NCBI RefSeq assembly: GCF_041886205.1
Contig: NZ_CP169029.1
Reading direction: 5' to 3' (one strand)
Length of the DNA: 64,000 nucleotides
Source: Escherichia coli
GTDB lineage: Bacteria; Pseudomonadota; Gammaproteobacteria; Enterobacterales; Enterobacteriaceae
How positions within the stretch are numbered: the stretch's first letter is position 1; each line of letters starts with the position of its first letter. The notes beneath the pieces are model-generated. The model was not told where the DNA came from and did not search any database. It was given only the letters and a program-made list of their open reading frames with translations. A program made the position numbers and the translations under genes. Shown here in pieces: positions 222-9,915 of the stretch.

Positions 222-647
222 TTATTTCAACCGCTTACCCGCTTCATCAACCACTTTCTCGCCATCTTCCTTGGAGAATGCGCCTTTTTGCGCATCTGGC
301 AGAATTTCCAGCACCACTTCTGAAGGGCGGCACAGGCGAGTTCCCAGCGGCGTCACCACAATCGGGCGATTAATCAGAATCGGGTGCTGAAGCATAAAGT
401 CGATTAACCGATCGTCAGTAAATTTATCTTCTGCAAGGCCCAGTTCCTCATACGGCTCGACGTTTTTACGCAACAGCGCGCGTACGGAAATCCCCATATC
501 GGCAATGAGTTTGACCAGCTCATCGCGCGTTGGCGGTGTTTCCAGATAATAGATAATGGTCGGTTCTGTACCGCTGTTGCGGATCATCTCCAGCGTATTA
601 CGCGACGTACCGCAGGCCGGGTTGTGATAAATGGTAATGTTGCTCAT
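222..647 (-). CDS. arsC: arsenate reductase (glutaredoxin-dependent)
   Basis: 141-aa ORF; N-terminus MSNITIYHNPACGTSRNTLEMIR with the HNPxCGTS active-site region; last gene of the ars cluster. Confidence 0.93.
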   Translation of the reverse strand: MSNITIYHNPACGTSRNTLEMIRNSGTEPTIIYYLETPPTRDELVKLIADMGISVRALLRKNVEPYEELGLAEDKFTDDRLIDFMLQHPILINRPIVVTPLGTRLCRPSEVVLEILPDAQKGAFSKEDGEKVVDEAGKRLK

Positions 648-659
648 ATCAATATCTCA

Positions 660-1949
660 TTACAAAGTGAAAGAGAGACGTAGCGCCAGCGCAGCCAGCG
701 TCACAAAAAGCACCGGCAGGGTCATGATAATCCCTGTACGGAAGTAATATCCCCAGCTGATAGTCATATTCTTCTGCGAAAGTACGTGCAGCCAGAGTAG
801 CGTAGCCAGGCTACCAATTGGGGTAATTTTCGGTCCCAAATCGCAGCCAATCACGTTGGCATAAACCATCGCTTCTTTGATAACGCCAGATGCCGTGCTG
901 CCATCAATGGACAACGCGCCAACCAGTACCGTCGGCATATTGTTCATAATAGAAGAGAGGAAGGCGGTGAGGAATCCGGTGCCGAGCGTCGCGGCCCACA
1001 GGCCGTTTTCCGCCAGCACGTTGAGTACGCCAGAAAGATATTCCGTTAGTCCGGCATTGCGCAGGCCATAAACCACCAGATACATGCCGAGCGAGAAGAT
1101 GACAATCTGCCAGGGCGCACCGCGCAGGACTTTACCCGTATTAATTGCATGACCGCGTTTAGCGACGGCAAATAATATCAGCGCGCCCACTGCCGCAATG
1201 GCGCTTACCGGAATGCCGAGCGGTTCCAGGACGAAAAATCCCACCAGCAGAAACAGTAAAACAACCCAGCCAGTTTTGAAGGTGGCAGGATCTTTAATCG
1301 CTTCTGCGGGCGATTTCAGCAGCGCCATATCGTAGTTCTGCGGAATATCTTTGCGGAAATAGAGATGCAACATCACCAGCGTGGCAACAATTGCGGCGAT
1401 ATCCACCGGCACCATCACCGATGCGTATTCGCGAAAGCCGAGGCCAAAGAAATCTGCGGAAACGATATTCACCAGGTTGGAGACAATAAGCGGCAGGCTG
1501 GCGGTATCGGCAATGAATCCGGCCGCCATCACGAACGCCAGCGTAGTGCCTTTACTGAACCCTAAAGCCAGCAGCATGGCGATGACAATTGGCGTTAAAA
1601 TCAGCGCCGCGCCATCATTGGCAAACAGAGCTGCAACGGCAGCACCGAGCAGGACAATCCAGGTAAACAGCAAGCGACCGCGTCCATTGCCCCAGCGTGA
1701 GACGTGCAGCGCCGCCCATTCAAAAAAGCCGGACTCATCCAGCAGCAGGCTGATGATAATGACGGCAATAAACGCCGCCGTCGCGTTCCAGACGATATTC
1801 CACACCACCGGAATATCACCCGGATGAACCACGCCCGTAACCAACGCCAGTACCGCGCCGAGCGTTGCACTCCAGCCGATGCCTAAACCTTTCGGCTGCC
1901 AGATAACCAATACGATGGTCAGGACAAAAATAGCGCCTGCCAGTAACAT
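660..1949 (-). CDS. arsB: arsenite/antimonite efflux permease
   Basis: 429-aa polytopic membrane ORF between arsA and arsC; recognised ArsB sequence. Confidence 0.94.
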
Positions 1950-1991
1950 ACACCCTCCTGACAGGGCGACATGGTCGCCCTGTATAAAAAA

Positions 1992-3743
1992 TTAACTTGC
2001 CAGCTTTCTGAGTTTTTCGATGCCCGTAGGTTCTTGTGCGAATAGAGGGACCAGCGCTACACGCTTAGCATGTCGGGCCATCACCGCCTCAATTTGTGGT
2101 CGTTCCTGCGTTGCTCGCTGACACAGTAGCGACGAACGTGTATCCGCAATAGAAAGGCAGTTATTGATTATCCAGCCCCAGGGATGAATCCCTGCGCGTT
2201 CAAGATCGGCCTGCAAATTAGCCGCTTCCAGTACGGGCGTGGTTTCAGGCAGCGTAACCAGCAGCACTTTGGTGCGTTGCGGATCCTGAAGTAGCATCAT
2301 TGGCGTAGTAAAGTGACCTTTTTCGCCCATTTTTTTCGCAATTTCACGGTGATAAGCCCCGGTGGCATCCAGCAATAACAGCGTGTGACCGGTTGGCGCG
2401 GTATCCATCACCACAAAACGTTTACCCGCCTCACGGATCACGCGCGAGAACGCCTGAAATACAGCAATCTCTTCGGTGCAAGGAGAGCGTAAATCCTCTT
2501 CCAGCAGTCGTTTCCCCGCTTCATCGAGATCTTTTCCCTTTGTCTCAAGGACATGCTGGCGATAGCGCTCGGTCTCTTCCTGCGGATTGATCCTGCTGAC
2601 CTGTAGGTTGGTAAGTGTGCCGTTTAGGGTAGTGTTAATGTGGGCAGCAGGATCGGAGGTTGTAAGATGCACATCGAATCCCATATCTGCCAGGCTGACG
2701 GCGATAGCTGCGGCCATTGTGGTTTTCCCCACGCCGCCTTTTCCCATCAGCATGATCAGACCGTGTTCACTGCGGGCAATATCATTCACTAGCTCAGAGA
2801 ATGACATGTTTTCAAAGAATTGCTGGCGCATCTGGTCAGAGAGCGGTGCAGGCTCGAAACGGGTATTAAAAAGACCTTTTAATGCAGGCACGCCAACCAT
2901 GTTCACCGGTTGAAGAAAGAGGGTATCTGCTGGAATGGTCGATAAACCGGCGGGTAAATTTACCAGGGCTTCCTGCTCACGCTGAACTATTGCCATTGCT
3001 AGTGGGTCATTTTGCTGCCCGGACTCAGGCAATACGCCGTTGATCACCAGATAATGATTTTTAAGACCAATCGCTGCCAGTTCTTCATGAGTGCGAGCGA
3101 CTTCCTGCAATGTTGATTTTTGCAGGCGTGCAACCAGCACCAGGCGGGTACGCTCAGGATCGGATAATGCTTCTACCGCATCAGCGTACTGCTCACGCTG
3201 TTTTTCCAGCCCAGCCATCGGGCCAAGACAGGAGGCACCATCGGGATTACTTTCAATAAAACTGCTCCAGGCACCGGGGAGCTGCAGAAGTCGTATGGTA
3301 TGGCCCGTTGGCGCGGTATCAAAAATGATGTGATCAAAGCGGGCCAGCAGAGAGGCATCGGTCAGTAAACCGGTGAACTCATCGAACGCCGCGATCTCCG
3401 TCGTACATGCTCCCGAAAGTTGTTCGCGTATACTATTTACAACCTCCTCAGGGAGAAGTCCTTTGATAGGGTCAACGATTCTGGCCCGATACTGTTCAGC
3501 GGCTTGCTGAGGATCAATTTCCAGCGCGGACAAACCGGGAACCGCTGTCACAGGAGTAATAGCGTTACCAATAGTTTGATTAAATACCTGACCGACATTC
3601 GACGCGGGGTCGGTGCTGACAAGCAGAACCCGTTTTCCCTGTTCCGCCAGATGGATAGCAGTTGCGCAGGAAATTGACGTTTTACCTACACCTCCCTTAC
3701 CGGTAAAAAACAGATAAGGCGGGATATTCTGTAAGAATTTCAT
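1992..3743 (-). CDS. arsA: arsenite-stimulated ATPase ArsA (two homologous halves)
   Basis: ORF-track 591 aa; likely start at internal Met (MKFLQNIPPYLFFTGKGGVGKTS); two P-loops GKGGVGKT present (N- and C-half). Confidence 0.93.
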   Translation of the reverse strand: MKFLQNIPPYLFFTGKGGVGKTSISCATAIHLAEQGKRVLLVSTDPASNVGQVFNQTIGNAITPVTAVPGLSALEIDPQQAAEQYRARIVDPIKGLLPEEVVNSIREQLSGACTTEIAAFDEFTGLLTDASLLARFDHIIFDTAPTGHTIRLLQLPGAWSSFIESNPDGASCLGPMAGLEKQREQYADAVEALSDPERTRLVLVARLQKSTLQEVARTHEELAAIGLKNHYLVINGVLPESGQQNDPLAMAIVQREQEALVNLPAGLSTIPADTLFLQPVNMVGVPALKGLFNTRFEPAPLSDQMRQQFFENMSFSELVNDIARSEHGLIMLMGKGGVGKTTMAAAIAVSLADMGFDVHLTTSDPAAHINTTLNGTLTNLQVSRINPQEETERYRQHVLETKGKDLDEAGKRLLEEDLRSPCTEEIAVFQAFSRVIREAGKRFVVMDTAPTGHTLLLLDATGAYHREIAKKMGEKGHFTTPMMLLQDPQRTKVLLVTLPETTPVLEAANLQADLERAGIHPWGWIINNCLSIADTRSSLLCQRATQERPQIEAVMARHAKRVALVPLFAQEPTGIEKLRKLAS

Positions 3744-3760
3744 ATGTCCCCCTGACCGGC

Positions 3761-4123
3761 TCAACAACAGTCGGTTTTTCCGCCACAGCAGTGTGTTGGT
3801 GCCAGTCCCACCTTCTCCAGCGGGATCCCAAACCAGCGGGCTAGCTCGGCGCGTTTCGGATAACGGCCCGCCATCACGGTTTCGCCTCCCAGTAAGATCA
3901 AGGGCAATCCTTCCGCCCCGGAAGCCTCAAGAAACGCTTTCGCTTTTTCGTTTTGCACGAAACTCATCGGTTGCTGCGCGAGATTGTAACGTTCGACCTG
4001 AACACCGCGGCTTTTCAGCCATTGCACATCTGCGGAAAAATCGACCAGCACCTGATCAACATCAGAACCACAGACGCCGGTACTGCAACACATCGCCGGA
4101 TCAAACACCGTTAACGTCTTCAT
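3761..4123 (-). CDS. arsD: arsenic metallochaperone / secondary repressor ArsD
   Basis: 120-aa ORF; MKTLTVFDPAMCCSTGVCG with the Cys12-Cys13-Cys18 triad and C-terminal CC pairs. Confidence 0.92.
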   Translation of the reverse strand: MKTLTVFDPAMCCSTGVCGSDVDQVLVDFSADVQWLKSRGVQVERYNLAQQPMSFVQNEKAKAFLEASGAEGLPLILLGGETVMAGRYPKRAELARWFGIPLEKVGLAPTHCCGGKTDCC

Positions 4124-4170
4124 CTTCGATACCTCACATTCGGAAAATCATATATATCAAGTCAAATTTT

Positions 4171-4524
4171 TTAACTGCAACTTGCTTTACCGTCAGCAGA
4201 GCAGTTGGCTGCGGCCAGCTTACGGGCGATAGCCTGCACGTCGTCCAGTTGGCTTAATCTTGTTTGCTCAATAATTTTCGCCGCCCATGCTGGAATATGC
4301 GGCGATAAGCGGTAATGAACCCACTTACCCTGCTTGCGATCCAGCAATAGCCCACTTTCACGCAGCAATGCCAGGTGGCGGGAGATCTTGGGCTGCGACT
4401 GGTCGAGAGCAGTACAGAGATCGCAGACACATAACTCTCCCAGCTCGCTGAGCAGTAAAACGATGCCCAGACGGGTCTCATCAGCAAGAATTTTGAACAG
4501 TTGGATGGGTAAGAGAAATGACAT
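4171..4524 (-). CDS. arsR: ArsR/SmtB-family arsenite-responsive repressor
   Basis: 117-aa ORF with ELCVCDL metal-binding motif inside a wHTH; first gene of operon. Confidence 0.93.
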   Translation of the reverse strand: MSFLLPIQLFKILADETRLGIVLLLSELGELCVCDLCTALDQSQPKISRHLALLRESGLLLDRKQGKWVHYRLSPHIPAWAAKIIEQTRLSQLDDVQAIARKLAAANCSADGKASCS

Positions 4525-4534
4525 ATTGCGCTCC

Positions 4535-4610
4535 TGATTGTTGCAGGTAGTGTCTCTCTTCGAAGCGGATAAGTCAAAAACATATATGACTTAACGAATG
4601 TGTAAGCGCA
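4535..4610 (-). promoter_or_regulatory. ars operon promoter/ArsR operator region (approximate)
   Basis: Immediately upstream of arsR; contains aagtcaaaaacatatatgacttaacgaat with imperfect dyad; position inferred, not mapped. Confidence 0.35.
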
Positions 4611-4671
4611 GAAGAAGGTAATAGGTGTGAATTTTGAGTTGGGTATTCATTTGAAAGGAGGTCTGAATCAG

Positions 4672-4762
4672 GACGTAAAAAAACCGACTTTGTGTCGGTT
4701 TTTTACTTCCCAGCCCTGAGTTGGTGGCTCTGGCTGGAGTGAGAGAGCTCTTATCTAACAGT
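4672..4762 (-). ncRNA. agrB: agrB-like small RNA (antisense regulator of dinQ); agrA/agrB naming by position is tentative
   Basis: ~90-bp unit with hairpin aaaaaaaccgactttgtgtcggtttttt and a stretch (ctctggctggagtgagagagctcttatctaaca) repeated in the dinQ 5' region; K-12 carries agrA/agrB here. Confidence 0.5.
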
Positions 4763-4902
4763 TCAATACTATTAGCCAGTGGCTAACATTGCAAGAATTA
4801 GCGATTTCTTCAGCTGGAGAAGGGACAGTTTGCTATACATGTTGGTGAAAGAGGATTTATATACTTTCATCGGGTCGCTGCCGTACCAAGCCTTGTCCGA
4901 AT

Positions 4903-4993
4903 CCGGATGTAAAAAAACCGACTTTGCGTCGGTTTTTTACTTTCCAGCCCTGAGTTGGTGGCTCTGACTGGAGTGAGATAGCCATCATCTAAC
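4903..4993 (-). ncRNA. agrA: agrA-like small RNA (second copy of agr repeat unit)
   Basis: Near-identical second copy of the 4672-4762 unit (hairpin aaaaaaaccgactttgcgtcggtttttt plus ctctgactggagtgagatagcc...). Confidence 0.5.
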
Positions 4994-5057
4994 GCATCAA
5001 TGCTAATACCATACTGAAACTATTGCAAGGACGTGCTGGTTTTATAACCTGCATGTA

Positions 5058-5073
5058 CTGTATGATTATCCAG
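5058..5073 (+). promoter_or_regulatory. LexA box (SOS box) in dinQ promoter
   Basis: ctgtatgattatccag fits CTG-N10-CAG LexA consensus; upstream of dinQ. Confidence 0.55.
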
Positions 5074-5266
5074 TTAGCTCTGAGGCATTTTCACTCTGGC
5101 AATGCGCATAAACGCTTTCAAAGTCCTGGTCAGAAGTACGGGTGGTGCCGTTAACTGATGCTCTGGCCGGAGTGAGAGAGTTCTTATCTAACAATGAGAC
5201 ATGCGCCGTGACAGGCAGTGGATGAGTAAGCGGATGCATTCTCACTCCATCGCATGGAGAAAACGG

Positions 5267-5350
5267 GTGATTGATAAAGCAATCATCGTTCTTGGGGCGT
5301 TAATTGCGCTGCTGGAACTGATCCGCTTTCTGCTTCAGCTTCTGAACTGA
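5267..5350 (+). CDS. dinQ: type I toxin peptide DinQ (27 aa, GTG start)
   Basis: Translation from GTG gives MIDKAIIVLGALIALLELIRFLLQLLN, a single hydrophobic helix matching DinQ; too short for the ORF track. Confidence 0.7.
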   Translation: MIDKAIIVLGALIALLELIRFLLQLLN

Positions 5351-5365
5351 TAGCGGAAACGTAAT

Positions 5366-5397
5366 TAAGGGCTAAGAGCACACTACTCTTAGCCCTT
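5366..5397. terminator. stem-loop between convergent dinQ and gor
   Basis: Inverted repeat gggctaagag...ctcttagccc directly after dinQ stop and before gor stop. Confidence 0.45.
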
Positions 5398-5403
5398 TAA
5401 CAT

Positions 5404-6756
5404 TTAACGCATGGTCACGAACTCTTCTGCCGCCGTCGGGTGAATGGCAACCGTGTTGTCGAAGTCTTTTTTGGTTGCGCCCATCTTCAGCGCCACCGCG
5501 AAGCCCTGCAACATTTCGTCCATACCAAAACCAATTCCGTGAATACCGACAATCTTCTCTTCCGGCCCAACGCACACCAGCTTCATGCGGCACGGCTGGC
5601 GGTGAGTGGTGACTGCGGTATACATCGCGGTGAAAGAGGATTTATACACTTTCACCTGATCGTCGCCGTACTGCTCGCGCGCCTGCGGTTCCGTTAAACC
5701 AACAGTACCAATCGGCGGATGGCTGAAGACCACGGTCGGAATGTTGCTGTAATCCAGATGCTCATCCGGCTTGTTATTAAACAGGCGTTCAGAGAGGCGG
5801 CGACCCGCTGCAACTGCCACCGGTGTCAGTTCTACTGCACCCGTGTTATCGCCCACCGCGTAAATACCTTCAATGTTGGTGTTTTGATATTTATCGACGA
5901 CGATATAGCCTTTTTCGTTAGTTTTAACGCCAGCGGCTTCCAGGTTGATGTTGTCATTGGCAGGCTCGCGACCAATCGCCCAAATCAGGCAATCCACCGT
6001 TTCACTGCGACCATCTTCCAGCTCCAGCGTCAGGCTACCATCGGCATTTTTCACTACCGCTTTCGGGATGGCGTTGGTGTGCAACTGCGGGCCTTCGGCG
6101 TTCATCACTTCGACCAGCGTTTCAGAGATCATCGGGTCGAAGCTGCGCAGCGGCGCATGTTTACGCACAAACAGATGCGTTTTCGCGCCGAGGCCGTTAA
6201 TCACGCCCGCCAGCTCAACGGCGATGTAACCCGCGCCAACAACAGCCACGCGCTCTGGCAAAGCAGGAAGGGCGAAGAAGCCATCAGAATCAATACCGTA
6301 TTCCACGCCTGGAATATCCGGGTGGCTCGGACGACCGCCGGTGGCGATCAGAATATGATCGGCCGTGATGGTTTCGCCGTTTACCTCCAGCGTTTTGGCA
6401 TCAACGAAGCGGGCAAAGCCTTTGATTACATCAACGTTATTTTTACCGAGCACGTTTTCATAGGAAGTATGAATACGGTCGATATAGGCGGTACGGCTGG
6501 CGATCAACGTTTCCCAGTTGAATTTATTGATAGTGGTATCAAAACCATAATCCGGGCCGTACATATGGATCGCTTCACGGATTTGCGCCGCGTGCCACAT
6601 CACTTTCTTCGGTACGCAGCCGACGTTCACGCAGGTGCCGCCCAGCTCTTTGGCTTCAATCAGTGCGCATTTCTGGCCGTACATAGCCGCGCGGTTGATG
6701 GAGGCGATACCGCCGCTGCCGCCGCCGATGGCGATGTAATCATAGTGTTTAGTCAT
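5404..6756 (-). CDS. gor: glutathione reductase
   Basis: 450-aa ORF; GGGSGG FAD motif and [10 protein letters not shown] redox-active disulfide. Confidence 0.97.
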
Positions 6757-7670: not shown

Positions 7671-7872
7671 GGGTAAAGGTGTTCCGGTAAGTAAAAATCG
7701 GCCCGTATTCGGGGCGCACAAAAGCCTATCAGGACAGTATACCGAAAAGAGGCCGCCGCCGCGAAAGCGTAACGTTTCTCATTGAAATTCACTACACTTA
7801 ACCCCATGCTACACACATTATGTAAAGCGCCCGTTGAGCGCTTCCCTAACCTCTTTAACCAGGACTGCGCGA

Positions 7873-9915
7873 ATGACGAATCCGTTACTGACTCCCTTTG
7901 AATTGCCTCCGTTTTCTAAAATTCTCCCGGAACATGTCGTTCCAGCCGTGACGAAGGCGCTGAACGACTGCCGGGAAAATGTGGAGCGCGTAGTAGCGCA
8001 AGGAGCACCGTACACCTGGGAAAATCTCTGCCAGCCGTTGGCGGAAGTGGACGATGTGCTTGGGCGTATTTTCTCCCCGGTCAGCCACCTGAACTCGGTG
8101 AAAAATAGCCCGGAACTGCGTGAAGCGTACGAACAAACCCTGCCGCTGCTGTCGGAATACAGCACCTGGGTAGGGCAACATGAAGGGCTGTATAAAGCGT
8201 ATCGCGACCTGCGCGATGGCGATCATTACGCCACGCTGAACACGGCGCAGAAGAAAGCGGTTGATAACGCACTGCGCGACTTTGAACTCTCTGGCATCGG
8301 TCTGCCGAAAGAGAAACAGCAGCGTTACGGCGAAATTGCTACCCGTCTTTCTGAACTGGGCAACCAGTACAGCAACAACGTCCTCGATGCGACGATGGGC
8401 TGGACCAAACTCGTTACCGACGAAGCGGAACTGGCGGGGATGCCAGAAAGCGCGCTGGCTGCGGCAAAAGCCCAGGCCGAAGCGAAAGAGCTGGAAGGCT
8501 ACCTGCTGACGCTGGATATCCCAAGCTACCTGCCGGTAATGACCTACTGCGACAACCAGGCTCTGCGCGAAGAGATGTATCGCGCATACAGCACCCGCGC
8601 CTCCGATCAAGGCCCGAACGCCGGTAAGTGGGATAACAGCAAGGTGATGGAAGAGATCCTCGCGCTGCGTCACGAACTGGCGCAACTGCTGGGCTTTGAA
8701 AACTACGCCTTTAAATCCCTTGCCACTAAAATGGCAGAAAACCCGCAGCAGGTGCTTGATTTCTTAACCGATCTGGCAAAACGCGCGCGTCCGCAAGGCG
8801 AAAAAGAGCTGGAGCAACTGCGTGCCTTCGCTAAAGCCGAATTTGGCGTGGATGAGTTGCAGCCGTGGGATATCGCTTACTACAGCGAAAAACAAAAACA
8901 GCATCTCTACAGCATCAGTGACGAACAGCTGCGTCCGTACTTCCCGGAAAACAAAGCGGTTAACGGCCTGTTTGAAGTGGTAAAACGTATTTACGGCATC
9001 ACCGCTAAAGAGCGTAAAGATGTTGATGTCTGGCATCCGGATGTACGTTTCTTCGAACTGTATGACGAGAACAACGAACTGCGCGGCAGCTTCTACCTCG
9101 ATCTGTATACCCGTGAAAACAAGCGCGGCGGGGCGTGGATGGATGACTGCGTAGGCCAGATGCGTAAAGCTGATGGTTCTCTGCAAAAACCGGTCGCGTA
9201 TCTAACCTGTAACTTCAACCGCCCGGTGAATGGTAAACCGGCGCTGTTTACCCATGACGAAGTTATCACCCTGTTCCATGAGTTCGGTCACGGCCTGCAC
9301 CATATGCTGACCCGCATCGAAACTGCCGGTGTGTCTGGTATCAGCGGGGTGCCGTGGGATGCGGTCGAACTGCCGAGCCAGTTTATGGAAAACTGGTGCT
9401 GGGAGCCGGAGGCGCTGGCGTTTATCTCTGGTCACTACGAAACCGGCGAACCGCTGCCGAAGGAACTACTGGATAAAATGCTGGCAGCGAAAAACTACCA
9501 GGCGGCACTGTTTATTCTGCGCCAGCTGGAGTTCGGCCTGTTCGATTTCCGCCTCCATGCCGAGTTCCGCCCGGATCAGGGAGCGAAAATCCTCGAAACT
9601 CTGGCAGAAATCAAGAAACTGGTTGCCGTGGTACCGTCTCCGTCATGGGGCCGTTTCCCACACGCTTTCAGCCATATTTTCGCCGGTGGTTATGCCGCAG
9701 GTTACTACAGCTACCTGTGGGCTGACGTACTGGCGGCAGATGCCTTCTCGCGCTTTGAGGAAGAGGGCATTTTCAACCGTAAAACCGGGCAGTCGTTCCT
9801 CGACAACATTCTAAGCCGTGGCGGTTCAGAAGAGCCGATGGATCTGTTCAAACGCTTCCGTGGTCGTGAACCGCAGCTGGATGCGATGCTGGAGCATTAC
9901 GGCATTAAGGGCTGA
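7873..9915 (+). CDS. prlC: oligopeptidase A (M3 family zinc metallopeptidase)
   Basis: ORF-track 693 aa; start [14 protein letters not shown] gives 680 aa; HEFGH zinc-binding motif present. Confidence 0.95.

What the first reader, a model, noticed from the sequence alone, without database searches (positions are those of the whole stretch)
4835..4895. A ~55-bp fragment of the gor 3' coding region is duplicated next to an agr unit
tatacatgttggtgaaagaggatttatatactttcatcgggtcgctgccgtacc (about 4835-4895) closely matches tatacatcgcggtgaaagaggatttatacactttcacctgatcgtcgccgtact inside the gor ORF (about 5615-5670). The small-RNA/toxin region therefore appears to have been built partly from local duplication of neighbouring coding sequence.
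Basis: seen in the sequence. Interest (0 to 1): 0.35.

Follow-up and report, generated by a model that had tools for sequence, protein, structure and literature searches.

The report
Old gor gene scrap between agrB/agrA
A decayed, apparently functionless scrap of the glutathione reductase gene (gor) sits between the two antitoxin RNA genes of the E. coli dinQ toxin locus; it looks like the scar of an ancient local duplication that gave the locus its second antitoxin gene, which is useful history but not a new kind of biology.

Summary
Window 4834-4886 matches gor 5619-5671 at 83% over 53 nt without gaps, on the same strand and in frame (E about 5e-10; no shuffle reaches the score). Weaker homology extends to about 4806-4886 against gor 5584-5672.

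The window is the E. coli arsR-gor intergenic region, which holds the dinQ/agrA/agrB type I toxin-antitoxin locus. The scrap lies between the agrA terminator and the agrB promoter and belongs to no known RNA.

It is ancient. The same right-hand junction (GCCGTAC..|..TTGTCCGAATC, directly abutting the agrA repeat unit) occurs in E. coli, E. whittamii and E. albertii. E. albertii keeps three other collinear pieces, including the gor stop codon, so the original copy covered the last 269 nt of gor.

It behaves neutrally:
- There are two deep haplotypes, 73-74% identical to each other.
- It carries indels.
- About 29% of complete E. coli genomes lack it.

Best model: one tandem duplication of about 785 bp (agr, dinQ and the gor 3' end), followed by deletions, produced agrB plus agrA. 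agrA/agrB divergence (about 18%) roughly matches gor-copy/gor divergence (17-20%), and the two agr types form sister clades.

The duplication is local, but gor sequence contributes only spacer.

The parts
4806..4886 (-). gor' remnant, a decayed copy of gor nt ~1085-1173 (Gor residues ~362-390). The core is 4834-4886; the left edge is uncertain by about +/-6 nt.
   Evidence: 53-nt core, 83%, E~5e-10, 0/1000 shuffles. (extension to ~4806; 62/77). No annotated feature lies under it in RefSeq genomes.
4887..4894 (.). 8-nt junction (CAAGCCTT) between the end of the gor homology and the start of the agrA repeat unit; the proposed duplication joint.
   Evidence: gor homology ends at 4886 and agr-unit homology starts at 4895. 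The same junction is present in E. whittamii, E. albertii and other E. coli lineages.
4661..4795 (-). agrB repeat unit: bidirectional terminator, agrB RNA (4675-4758) and its -10/-35 promoter.
   Evidence: Rfam RF02891, 103.3 bits. Direct repeat with 4895-5029, 81.5% over 135 nt, period 234.
4895..5029 (-). agrA repeat unit: terminator, agrA RNA (4909-4992) and promoter.
   Evidence: Rfam RF02891, 106.2 bits. Repeat with 4661-4795. Orthologous to the single agr unit of E. albertii (94-96% identity).
5058..5073 (+). LexA box (CTGTATGATTATCCAG) in the dinQ promoter.
   Evidence: Read. A LexA operator in the dinQ promoter is described in PMC3567139.
5160..5193 (+). Third copy of the repeat core, in the dinQ 5'UTR; this is the target of the agr antisense RNAs.
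   Evidence: 94% identical to 4727-4760. Antisense pairing is described in PMC3567139 and PMC5066626.
5267..5350 (+). dinQ ORF (27-aa toxin MIDKAIIVLGALIALLELIRFLLQLLN; the mechanical 49-aa ORF starts at 5201).
   Evidence: RefSeq annotates the homologous 84-nt CDS as 'damage-inducible type I toxin DinQ'.
5367..5397 (.). Shared hairpin terminator of dinQ and gor; it forms the right end of the dinQ/agr module, 6 nt from the gor stop codon.
   Evidence: Terminator scan. Module homology in other genera ends at ...CCCTTTAAYATT.
5584..5672 (-). Parent segment inside the intact gor CDS (5404-6756).
   Evidence: Gor is 450 aa and 96% identical to Citrobacter Gor.

Best explanation
The stretch is a functionless relic of the 3' part of gor, left at the joint of an ancient tandem duplication.

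Proposed steps (steps 1 and 2 are inferred):
1. A dinQ/agr type I toxin-antitoxin module of the kind carried by conjugative plasmids sat immediately downstream of the gor stop codon.
2. Before Escherichia species diverged, a segment of about 785 bp was duplicated in tandem. It ran from just left of the agr terminator, through dinQ, into gor 269 nt upstream of its stop. The result was [agr-dinQ'-gor'269][agr-dinQ-gor].
3. In the E. coli/E. whittamii lineage, a deletion of about 551 bp removed the spare toxin copy and most of gor'. What remained was agrB, about 80 nt of gor', then agrA-dinQ-gor.
4. E. albertii lost the left agr copy and kept three other pieces of gor'.

Shown here: the homology, the shared junction, the original 269-nt extent, the age, and the neutral behaviour of the remnant. 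Inferred: the order of events and the single-event model.

The remnant does nothing now except separate the agrA terminator from the agrB promoter.
For: 1. The homology is significant and in register.
2. gor homology ends at 4886 and the agrA-unit homology begins at 4895. That is the arrangement expected at a tandem-duplication joint. The gor'-to-gor spacing of 785 nt equals the distance from the unit start (4895) to just past the gor breakpoint.
3. The junction GCCGTAC(Y)|AA...TTGTCCGAATC is shared by E. coli haplotypes A and B, the L008 lineage, E. whittamii and E. albertii.
4. The E. albertii remnant aligns to three collinear gor blocks: nt 1-23/30 from the stop, 93-112, and 251-269. The score is 27 against 6.0 +/- 1.8, with 0/500 shuffles reaching it. 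The ancestral copy therefore ran from the stop codon to nt 269.
5. In a tree of agr units, agrA-type and agrB-type form sister clades inside Escherichia. Citrobacter and plasmid-type units lie outside, and the single units of E. albertii, SCPM and E1V33 fall in the agrA clade. Identity between the clades is 79-86%, against 91-100% within each. The duplication is thus local, predates speciation, and agrB was lost secondarily.
6. agrA/agrB divergence (about 18%) is roughly equal to gor'/gor divergence (17-20%), as expected from one event.
7. The remnant behaves neutrally. Window vs K-12 shows 23 differences in 4821-4920 against 0-2 per 50 nt in the rest of the intergenic region. There is a 4-nt deletion in the K-12 type and a 6-nt insertion in L008. 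No promoter-like site falls in it. About 1,596 of 5,422 genomes lack it, through recombination between repeat units.
8. Single-agr modules without gor sequence exist elsewhere.
Against: No lineage retaining the predicted intermediate (left-hand dinQ' or a full-length gor') was found. The one targeted metagenome scan returned only chance matches, and the 200 nt left of the E. albertii remnant show no trace of a module. In E. albertii the left flank, a truncated P1-like tail gene, joins exactly at the gor' stop codon. Under this model that needs a deletion endpoint at that spot; a TT(C)AACG microhomology makes it plausible but does not prove it. The two E. coli haplotypes of the remnant differ by about 26%, more than ordinary E. 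coli neutral divergence, and this is not explained. The divergence comparison rests on short sequences under different constraints.
Confidence: 0.6

Rival explanations
1. Two-step origin. First, the dinQ/agr module entered together with, or caused, a 269-bp duplication of the gor 3' end. This could have been a Campbell-type integration of a circle carrying a gor fragment, or homology-facilitated illegitimate recombination. It gave [flank][gor'269][agr-dinQ][gor], the arrangement E. albertii still shows. Later, a separate 234-bp tandem duplication of [gor' ~180-269 + agr unit] created agrB.
For: E. albertii has gor' starting at its stop codon with a single agr and no trace of a left-hand module. 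The agrB-agrA period is exactly 234 nt, and the agr homology ends (4795/5029) close to where the remnant begins, as a 234-bp tandem duplication would give without a later deletion. The module is plasmid-borne and mobile. The best, though non-significant, local match of the sequence left of agrB (4627-4650) falls on gor 5602-5625, the region this model predicts.
Against: The predicted second gor' copy left of agrB is not significant (score 10 vs 7.9 +/- 1.2; 106/1000 shuffles reach it). The agr tree puts the agrA/agrB split well before the E. albertii split, so E. albertii must have lost agrB anyway, which removes the parsimony advantage. The first step needs an unusual event. The E. albertii left flank is secondary phage-plasmid DNA, not an ancestral gor flank. 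gor downstream flanks in Citrobacter and Salmonella-like genomes share nothing with it. The similar gor'/gor and agrA/agrB divergences would be a coincidence.
Confidence: 0.22
2. The fragment is kept because it does something. Candidates: an upstream element of the agrB promoter, an RNA antisense to gor mRNA, the start of the 32-aa ORF at 4870-4772(-), or a spacer that limits recombination between agr units.
For: The remnant has persisted since before Escherichia speciation and is present in about 70% of E. coli genomes. An 18-nt run is identical to gor in the window allele. A mechanical ORF begins in it, [14 protein letters not shown]....
Against: The two haplotypes are only 73-74% identical to each other, and the K-12 type has a 4-nt deletion inside the 18-nt run. 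About 29% of genomes lack the remnant altogether, and E. albertii keeps different pieces. It lies -48 to -128 from the agrB start, outside the -35/UP region. No promoter-like site is found in it, and it sits downstream of the agrA terminator. I saw no Shine-Dalgarno sequence before the ORF. The published maps of the locus that I read report no transcript there (PMC3567139).
Confidence: 0.06
3. The similarity is due to chance, to a dispersed repeat, or to a recent ectopic gene-conversion patch copied from gor.
For: The match is short (53 nt). At one site (GCCATACT in gor, GTCATATT in the remnant), gor and remnant carry the same base within the K-12-type strains L001, L024, L025, L027 and L028.
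Against: E about 5e-10, with 0/1000 shuffles reaching the score. There are only two places per genome, the remnant and gor, so it is not a dispersed repeat. The remnant is 17-20% diverged from gor and shared across species, so it is not recent. The shared base fails in L010 and is explained by linkage.
Confidence: 0.02

Closest known systems
dinQ/agrA/agrB type I toxin-antitoxin locus of E. coli K-12 (Weel-Sneve et al. 2013, PMC3567139; Kristiansen et al. 2016, PMC5066626; Rfam RF02891 AgrB)
   Same: The window carries this locus in the same place (arsR-gor), with two AgrB-family hits, the LexA-controlled dinQ and the shared terminator. The authors already proposed that agrA and agrB 'have been tandemly duplicated'.
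   Different: Neither of the two primary dinQ papers I read mentions any gor-derived sequence; the region between agrA and agrB is treated as plain spacer. The remnant supplies the physical evidence, the extent (about 785 bp including 269 nt of gor) and the relative age of that duplication. The window's remnant is the rarer haplotype A, not the K-12 haplotype.
Plasmid-borne DinQ-like modules (dqlA/dqlB-agrB; Kristiansen 2016; pOXA-48 DqlB-agrB, PMC12365149)
   Same: Same architecture (agr terminator-RNA-promoter, divergent toxin gene with an agr-complementary 5'UTR, terminator). About 70-80% nucleotide identity to window 4895-5403 on 2,730 plasmids and in loci L013, L014 and L016.
   Different: These have a single agr copy and no gor sequence. 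They define the module boundaries and show that the gor' piece is not part of the module.
Gene-fragment relics at tandem-duplication joints (truncated pseudogene copies beside the intact gene)
   Same: A truncated, same-strand, in-register copy of the 3' part of the adjacent gene abuts the start of a repeated unit and decays by substitutions and deletions.
   Different: Here the relic is tied to the birth of a second antitoxin sRNA gene, and it is old enough to be shared by several Escherichia species. The comparison with the general class rests on my own background knowledge, not on a database test.

Membership tests
gor (glutathione-disulfide reductase) gene fragment / pseudogene | Significant nucleotide homology to gor, collinear and on the same strand | tested here: met
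   83% over 53 nt, E~5e-10; extended 62/77; E. albertii has three collinear blocks.
gor (glutathione-disulfide reductase) gene fragment / pseudogene | A complete, translatable coding sequence (which would make it a functional paralogue) | tested here: not met
   Only about 27 of 450 codons remain. There is no start or stop of its own, substitutions are mostly non-synonymous, and other alleles carry indels. It is a fragment, not a gene.
AgrB antisense RNA family (Rfam RF02891) | Covariance-model score at or above the gathering threshold (40 bits) | tested here: not met
   The flanking units score 103 and 106 bits. The only hit touching the remnant (4851-4941, + strand) scores 26.6 bits, E 0.09, and is driven by the neighbouring terminator hairpin. 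The remnant is not part of an agr RNA.
dinQ/agr (dql) type I toxin-antitoxin module | Presence of the sequence within the module in independent occurrences (other genera, plasmids) | tested here: not met
   Modules in L013, L014, L016 and on plasmids start at GTAAAAAAACCGAC and end at CCCTTTAAYATT. tblastn and blastn find no gor similarity in or beside them.
Tandem-duplication joint | The end of one repeated segment directly abuts the start of the next copy, and both segments have paralogues at the same spacing | tested here: inconclusive
   gor' ends at 4886 and the agrA unit starts at 4895. gor'-gor spacing is 785, but agrB-agrA spacing is 234, so a 551-bp deletion must be assumed. No undeleted intermediate was found.
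Dispersed intergenic repeat (REP/BIME-like) | Many copies per genome | tested here: not met
   Median 2 and at most 3 places per E. coli genome (typically the remnant and gor itself); none on plasmids.

The most novel reading that the evidence does not exclude
The remnant could mark a more general route by which plasmid-type type I toxin-antitoxin modules settle in chromosomes. On this reading the module integrated at the 3' end of gor with a 269-bp duplication of the target gene's end (the rival two-step model). The unusually deep, discrete haplotypes of the remnant (about 26% apart, flanked by near-identical sequence) would then reflect repeated short-patch exchange at a recombination-prone locus. 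At this same locus the 8-nt specificity core of agrA, agrB and dinQ is also being swapped between copies, so which sRNA is the cognate antitoxin differs between strains.
Probability: 0.15. Interest if true: 0.55.

Novelty: new member of a known kind. Interest (0 to 1): 0.33.

Why it matters
The remnant turns a passing remark in the literature ('presumably tandemly duplicated') into a reconstructable event. It gives the duplicated segment's likely end points and a relative age: before the E. coli, E. whittamii and E. albertii lineages split.

It shows that a spare toxin copy was probably discarded while the spare antitoxin was kept.

It shows that single-agr Escherichia lineages, and about 29% of E. 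coli genomes, reached their state by secondary loss.

It also provides a neutral marker, with two discrete haplotypes, inside a well-studied SOS-controlled toxin locus.

It does not reveal a new mechanism or a new functional element. The biologically more interesting lead is the side observation that the pairing core of dinQ matches agrB in K-12-like strains but agrA in many others.

Tried and rejected
1. I looked for a second gor' copy left of agrB (4560-4660 vs the remnant and vs gor). The best scores were 8 and 10 and were not significant.
2. I looked for homology between the spacer after agrA (5030-5140) and 4796-4894. There was none.
3. I tested whether the sequence left of the E. albertii remnant is the ancestral gor terminator or flank. 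The gor-downstream regions of C. koseri, C. farmeri, C. portucalensis and a Salmonella-like genome all differ. The E. albertii flank turned out to be a truncated P1-like phage-plasmid tail gene plus higBA.
4. I looked for a degenerate dinQ' left of the E. albertii remnant. There was none.
5. I ran a metagenome scan for a full-length gor' (TTAACGCATNGT N{240,270} GTCCGAATC). It returned 13 hits, all chance, with no homology to the locus.
6. I tested for gene conversion between gor and the remnant. One shared polymorphism is explained by linkage and fails in L010.
7. I asked whether the remnant is nearer to another genus' gor. Identities are 73-84% for all orthologues and slightly highest for Escherichia, which is not discriminating.
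8. I checked whether dinQ-like modules elsewhere are also flanked by duplicated neighbour-gene ends. L011 and L013 are not. L014 has a 127-nt direct repeat on both sides, but it is not collinear with a simple duplication.
9. L007, a low-coverage MAG contig, looked like a divergent gor beside an E. coli-like dinQ, but is probably a chimeric assembly.
10. A promoter/terminator scan found nothing in the remnant.

Full report
**Context**

The window carries an ars operon on the minus strand:
- arsC 222-647
- arsB 660-1949
- arsA 1992-3767
- arsD 3761-4123
- arsR 4171-4524

It also carries gor (5404-6756, minus strand). The 879-bp gap between them is the E. coli arsR-gor intergenic region, which holds the dinQ/agrA/agrB type I toxin-antitoxin locus.

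- Rfam AgrB (RF02891) hits 4675-4758(-) and 4909-4992(-) at 103 and 106 bits, against a gathering score of 40.
- The dinQ ORF ends at 5350, and RefSeq annotates the homologous CDS as DinQ.
- The whole gap is 100% identical to E. coli strain 6EVA and 96% identical to K-12 derivatives.

**Observation**

The reported repeat is real.
- 4834-4886 vs 5619-5671 is 83% identical over 53 nt, ungapped and on the same strand. E is 9.6e-12 against gor and 4.6e-10 against the whole window.
- The repeat finder finds the same pair (family D3, spacing 785).
- The local alignment score is 35 against 8.2 +/- 1.2 in 1000 shuffles.
- The copy stays in the gor frame for 18 codons, with 12 of 18 residues identical.
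- Alignment with other alleles extends the homology to about 4806-4886 vs gor 5584-5672 (62/77 here; 68/83 in E. whittamii, where BLAST gives 67 nt, E 2.6e-14).

**Anatomy**

The intergenic region contains three copies of a repeat core, at 4727-4760, 4961-4994 and 5160-5193. It also contains two 135-nt agr units (4661-4795 and 4895-5029, 81.5% identical, period 234).

On the minus strand the order is:
1. agrA
2. its terminator
3. the gor remnant
4. the agrB promoter (-35 near 4787-4792)
5. agrB
6. the arsR promoter

The remnant is therefore spacer, -48 to -128 from the agrB start. No promoter-like or terminator-like site falls in it.

gor homology stops at 4886, and the agrA-unit homology starts at 4895.

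**Related sequences**

A scan of 100,044 species genomes with the repeat-core pattern found the locus in several genomes:
- E. albertii
- E. whittamii
- two further E. coli-like clusters
- Escherichia sp. E1V33
- single modules in Citrobacter amalonaticus, 'Serratia sp. H1w', an Enterobacteriaceae MAG and Pantoea

E. whittamii has the full arsR-agrB-remnant-agrA-dinQ-gor arrangement.

The junction GCCGTAC(Y)|AA..TTGTCCGAATC is shared by all Escherichia lineages that keep any remnant.

E. albertii has one agr unit and no arsR. Its remnant aligns to three collinear gor blocks: nt 1-23/30 from the stop codon, 93-112, and 251-269. The score is 27 against 6.0 +/- 1.8, with 0/500 shuffles reaching it. 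The ancestral copy therefore spanned the last 269 nt of gor, and different lineages have deleted different parts.

The sequence left of the E. albertii remnant is a truncated tail gene plus higBA from a P1-like phage-plasmid. It joins at the gor' stop codon through a TT(C)AACG microhomology. It is not an ancestral gor flank. The gor-downstream regions of four Citrobacter and Salmonella-like genomes are all different.

**The module**

In the other genera and on plasmids the unit is self-contained. It consists of the agr terminator, RNA and promoter, a divergent LexA-type promoter, a 5'UTR with the agr target, the toxin ORF and a terminator.
- It runs from GTAAAAAAACCGAC to CCCTTTAAYATT.
- It has one agr copy and no gor similarity.
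- It matches 2,730 plasmids, mostly conjugative, annotated dinQ or dqlB. This agrees with PMC5066626 and PMC12365149.
- In Escherichia the right end of the module lies within 0-2 nt of the gor stop codon.
- In C. amalonaticus an orphan agr unit follows the yhjA (ccp) stop codon. In C. koseri, yhjA is the convergent neighbour of gor. This hints that the module once sat between yhjA and gor.

**History**

A neighbour-joining tree of agr units gives two sister clades within Escherichia.
- One clade holds the agrA-position units together with the single units of E. albertii, SCPM and E1V33.
- The other clade holds the agrB-position units.
- Citrobacter and plasmid-type units lie outside both.
- Identity between the clades is 79-86%, against 91-100% within each.

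The duplication is therefore local and older than the E. albertii split, and single-agr lineages lost agrB. The agrA/agrB divergence of about 18% roughly equals the gor'/gor divergence of 17-20%.

The simplest account is one tandem duplication of about 785 bp. That length is the present gor'-gor spacing, and it equals the interval 4895-5679. The duplicated segment covered agr, dinQ and 269 nt of gor. A deletion of about 551 bp then removed the spare dinQ and most of gor' in the E. coli/E. whittamii lineage.

The rival is a two-step origin: integration with a 269-bp target duplication, then a 234-bp tandem duplication. It is not excluded. However, its predicted extra gor' copy left of agrB is not significant, and it gains no parsimony from E. 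albertii.

A targeted metagenome scan for a full-length gor' found only chance matches.

**Is it functional?**

The evidence points to neutrality.

In 5,426 complete E. coli genomes:
- 809 carry the window-type haplotype A (at least 95% identity).
- 3,016 carry the K-12-type haplotype B (73-74% identical to A).
- About 1,596 show only the gor match.

The losses arise by recombination between repeats. One variant has an exact 234-bp deletion that fuses agrB and agrA. Another, the B2/Nissle variant, fuses the agrB core to the dinQ core.

Haplotype B has a 4-nt deletion and L008 has a 6-nt insertion.

Window vs K-12 shows 23 differences in 4821-4920, against 0-2 per 50 nt elsewhere in the intergenic region. 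That divergence exceeds ordinary E. coli neutral divergence and remains unexplained. A and B each share different states with gor, so both are old, independently decayed lineages.

**Literature**

Weel-Sneve et al. 2013 describe the locus and say the sRNAs were 'presumably tandemly duplicated'. Neither that paper nor Kristiansen et al. 2016 mentions gor-derived sequence in the intergenic region. I did not check the other hits of the literature searches for this point. RefSeq annotates nothing under the remnant in 39 of the 40 genomes listed; one lists a 'hypothetical protein'.

**Verdict**

It is a new example of a familiar kind of feature, a pseudogene relic at a duplication joint. It is modestly interesting because it documents how the locus acquired its second antitoxin gene.

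Noticed in passing
window 4745-4752 (agrB), 4979-4986 (agrA), 5178-5185 (dinQ 5'UTR); loci L001-L030: The 8-nt variable centre of the agr/dinQ pairing core co-varies between strains. In the window and K-12, dinQ GAGTTCTT matches agrB (GAGCTCTT / GAGTTCTT), while agrA is TAGCCATC. In L027 and L028, dinQ ATGCCATT equals agrA exactly, while agrB stays GAGTTCTT. In L010, E. whittamii and E. albertii, dinQ TAGTCGTC is closest to agrA. Only 1,675 of 5,411 genomes carry the K-12/window dinQ allele at 99% identity or more. So which sRNA is the cognate antitoxin probably differs between strains, and the published 'agrA is degenerate' conclusion may be K-12-specific.
   Followed up: partly
L004 (Nissle/B2, locus 1437-1908) and L003, L002 vs window 4525-5403: There are structural variants of the locus. 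One is an exact 234-bp deletion that fuses agrB and agrA into one hybrid unit (L002, L003). In B2 strains the agrB core is fused to the dinQ core, which removes agrA, the agr promoter and the dinQ promoter with its LexA box. The dinQ ORF is left intact but apparently without a promoter.
   Followed up: partly
window 4812-4895 vs L001 and others: The remnant has two discrete, deeply diverged haplotypes within E. coli: A in the window, O157:H7 and O145; B in K-12 and most others. They are about 26% different, with almost no intermediates (1 genome in the 90-95% band), and are embedded in near-identical flanks. E. whittamii carries a B-like allele. The cause is unknown; introgression, short-patch recombination or local hypermutation are possible.
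   Followed up: partly
window 222-4524: The chromosomal ars operon here is the five-gene arsRDABC type (arsD 3761-4123, arsA 1992-3767), not the arsRBC of K-12. Divergence from K-12 jumps to 17-21 differences per 50 nt in the 3' end of arsR (4171-4270), which suggests a recombination breakpoint inside arsR.
   Followed up: no
L005 (E. albertii), reverse-complement coordinates 285-1100: A higBA-like toxin-antitoxin pair and a truncated tail gene, 93-94% identical to about 90-kb P1-like phage-plasmids of E. coli, abut the gor' stop codon. ars and agrB are absent there.
   Followed up: yes
L011 (Citrobacter amalonaticus), reverse-complement coordinates 7839-8058: An orphan agr unit plus a dinQ-promoter-like stretch with a LexA-box-like CTGTATATTTATCCAG lies directly after the stop codon of a yhjA/ccp-like gene. 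There is no dinQ ORF and no gor nearby.
   Followed up: partly
L014 608-734 vs 1595-1710 (reverse-complement coordinates); L016 similar: The dinQ-like module in a plasmid/ICE-like context (parA/parB-like, umuDC-like, ardA-like and methylase genes, as judged from ORF translations only) is flanked by a 127-nt direct repeat, 71% identical, on both sides. This may be a repeated leading-region element; I did not identify it.
   Followed up: no
window 4772-4870 (-): A mechanical 32-aa ORF ([32 protein letters not shown]) starts at an ATG created from the gor Val369 GTG codon inside the remnant and runs through the agrB promoter. I saw no Shine-Dalgarno sequence or promoter, and the ORF is not conserved in haplotype B.
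   Followed up: partly
L025 (E. coli Z226-5) 1090-1137: dinQ is annotated as an incomplete pseudogene in this strain, and its agrB core did not match the core pattern. This is another sign of ongoing decay of the locus in some lineages.
   Followed up: no
L007 (MAG contig CAJMPC010000160.1): A low-coverage contig joins a dinQ region 99.8% identical to E. coli with a gor only about 72-79% identical. It is probably a chimeric assembly.
   Followed up: partly
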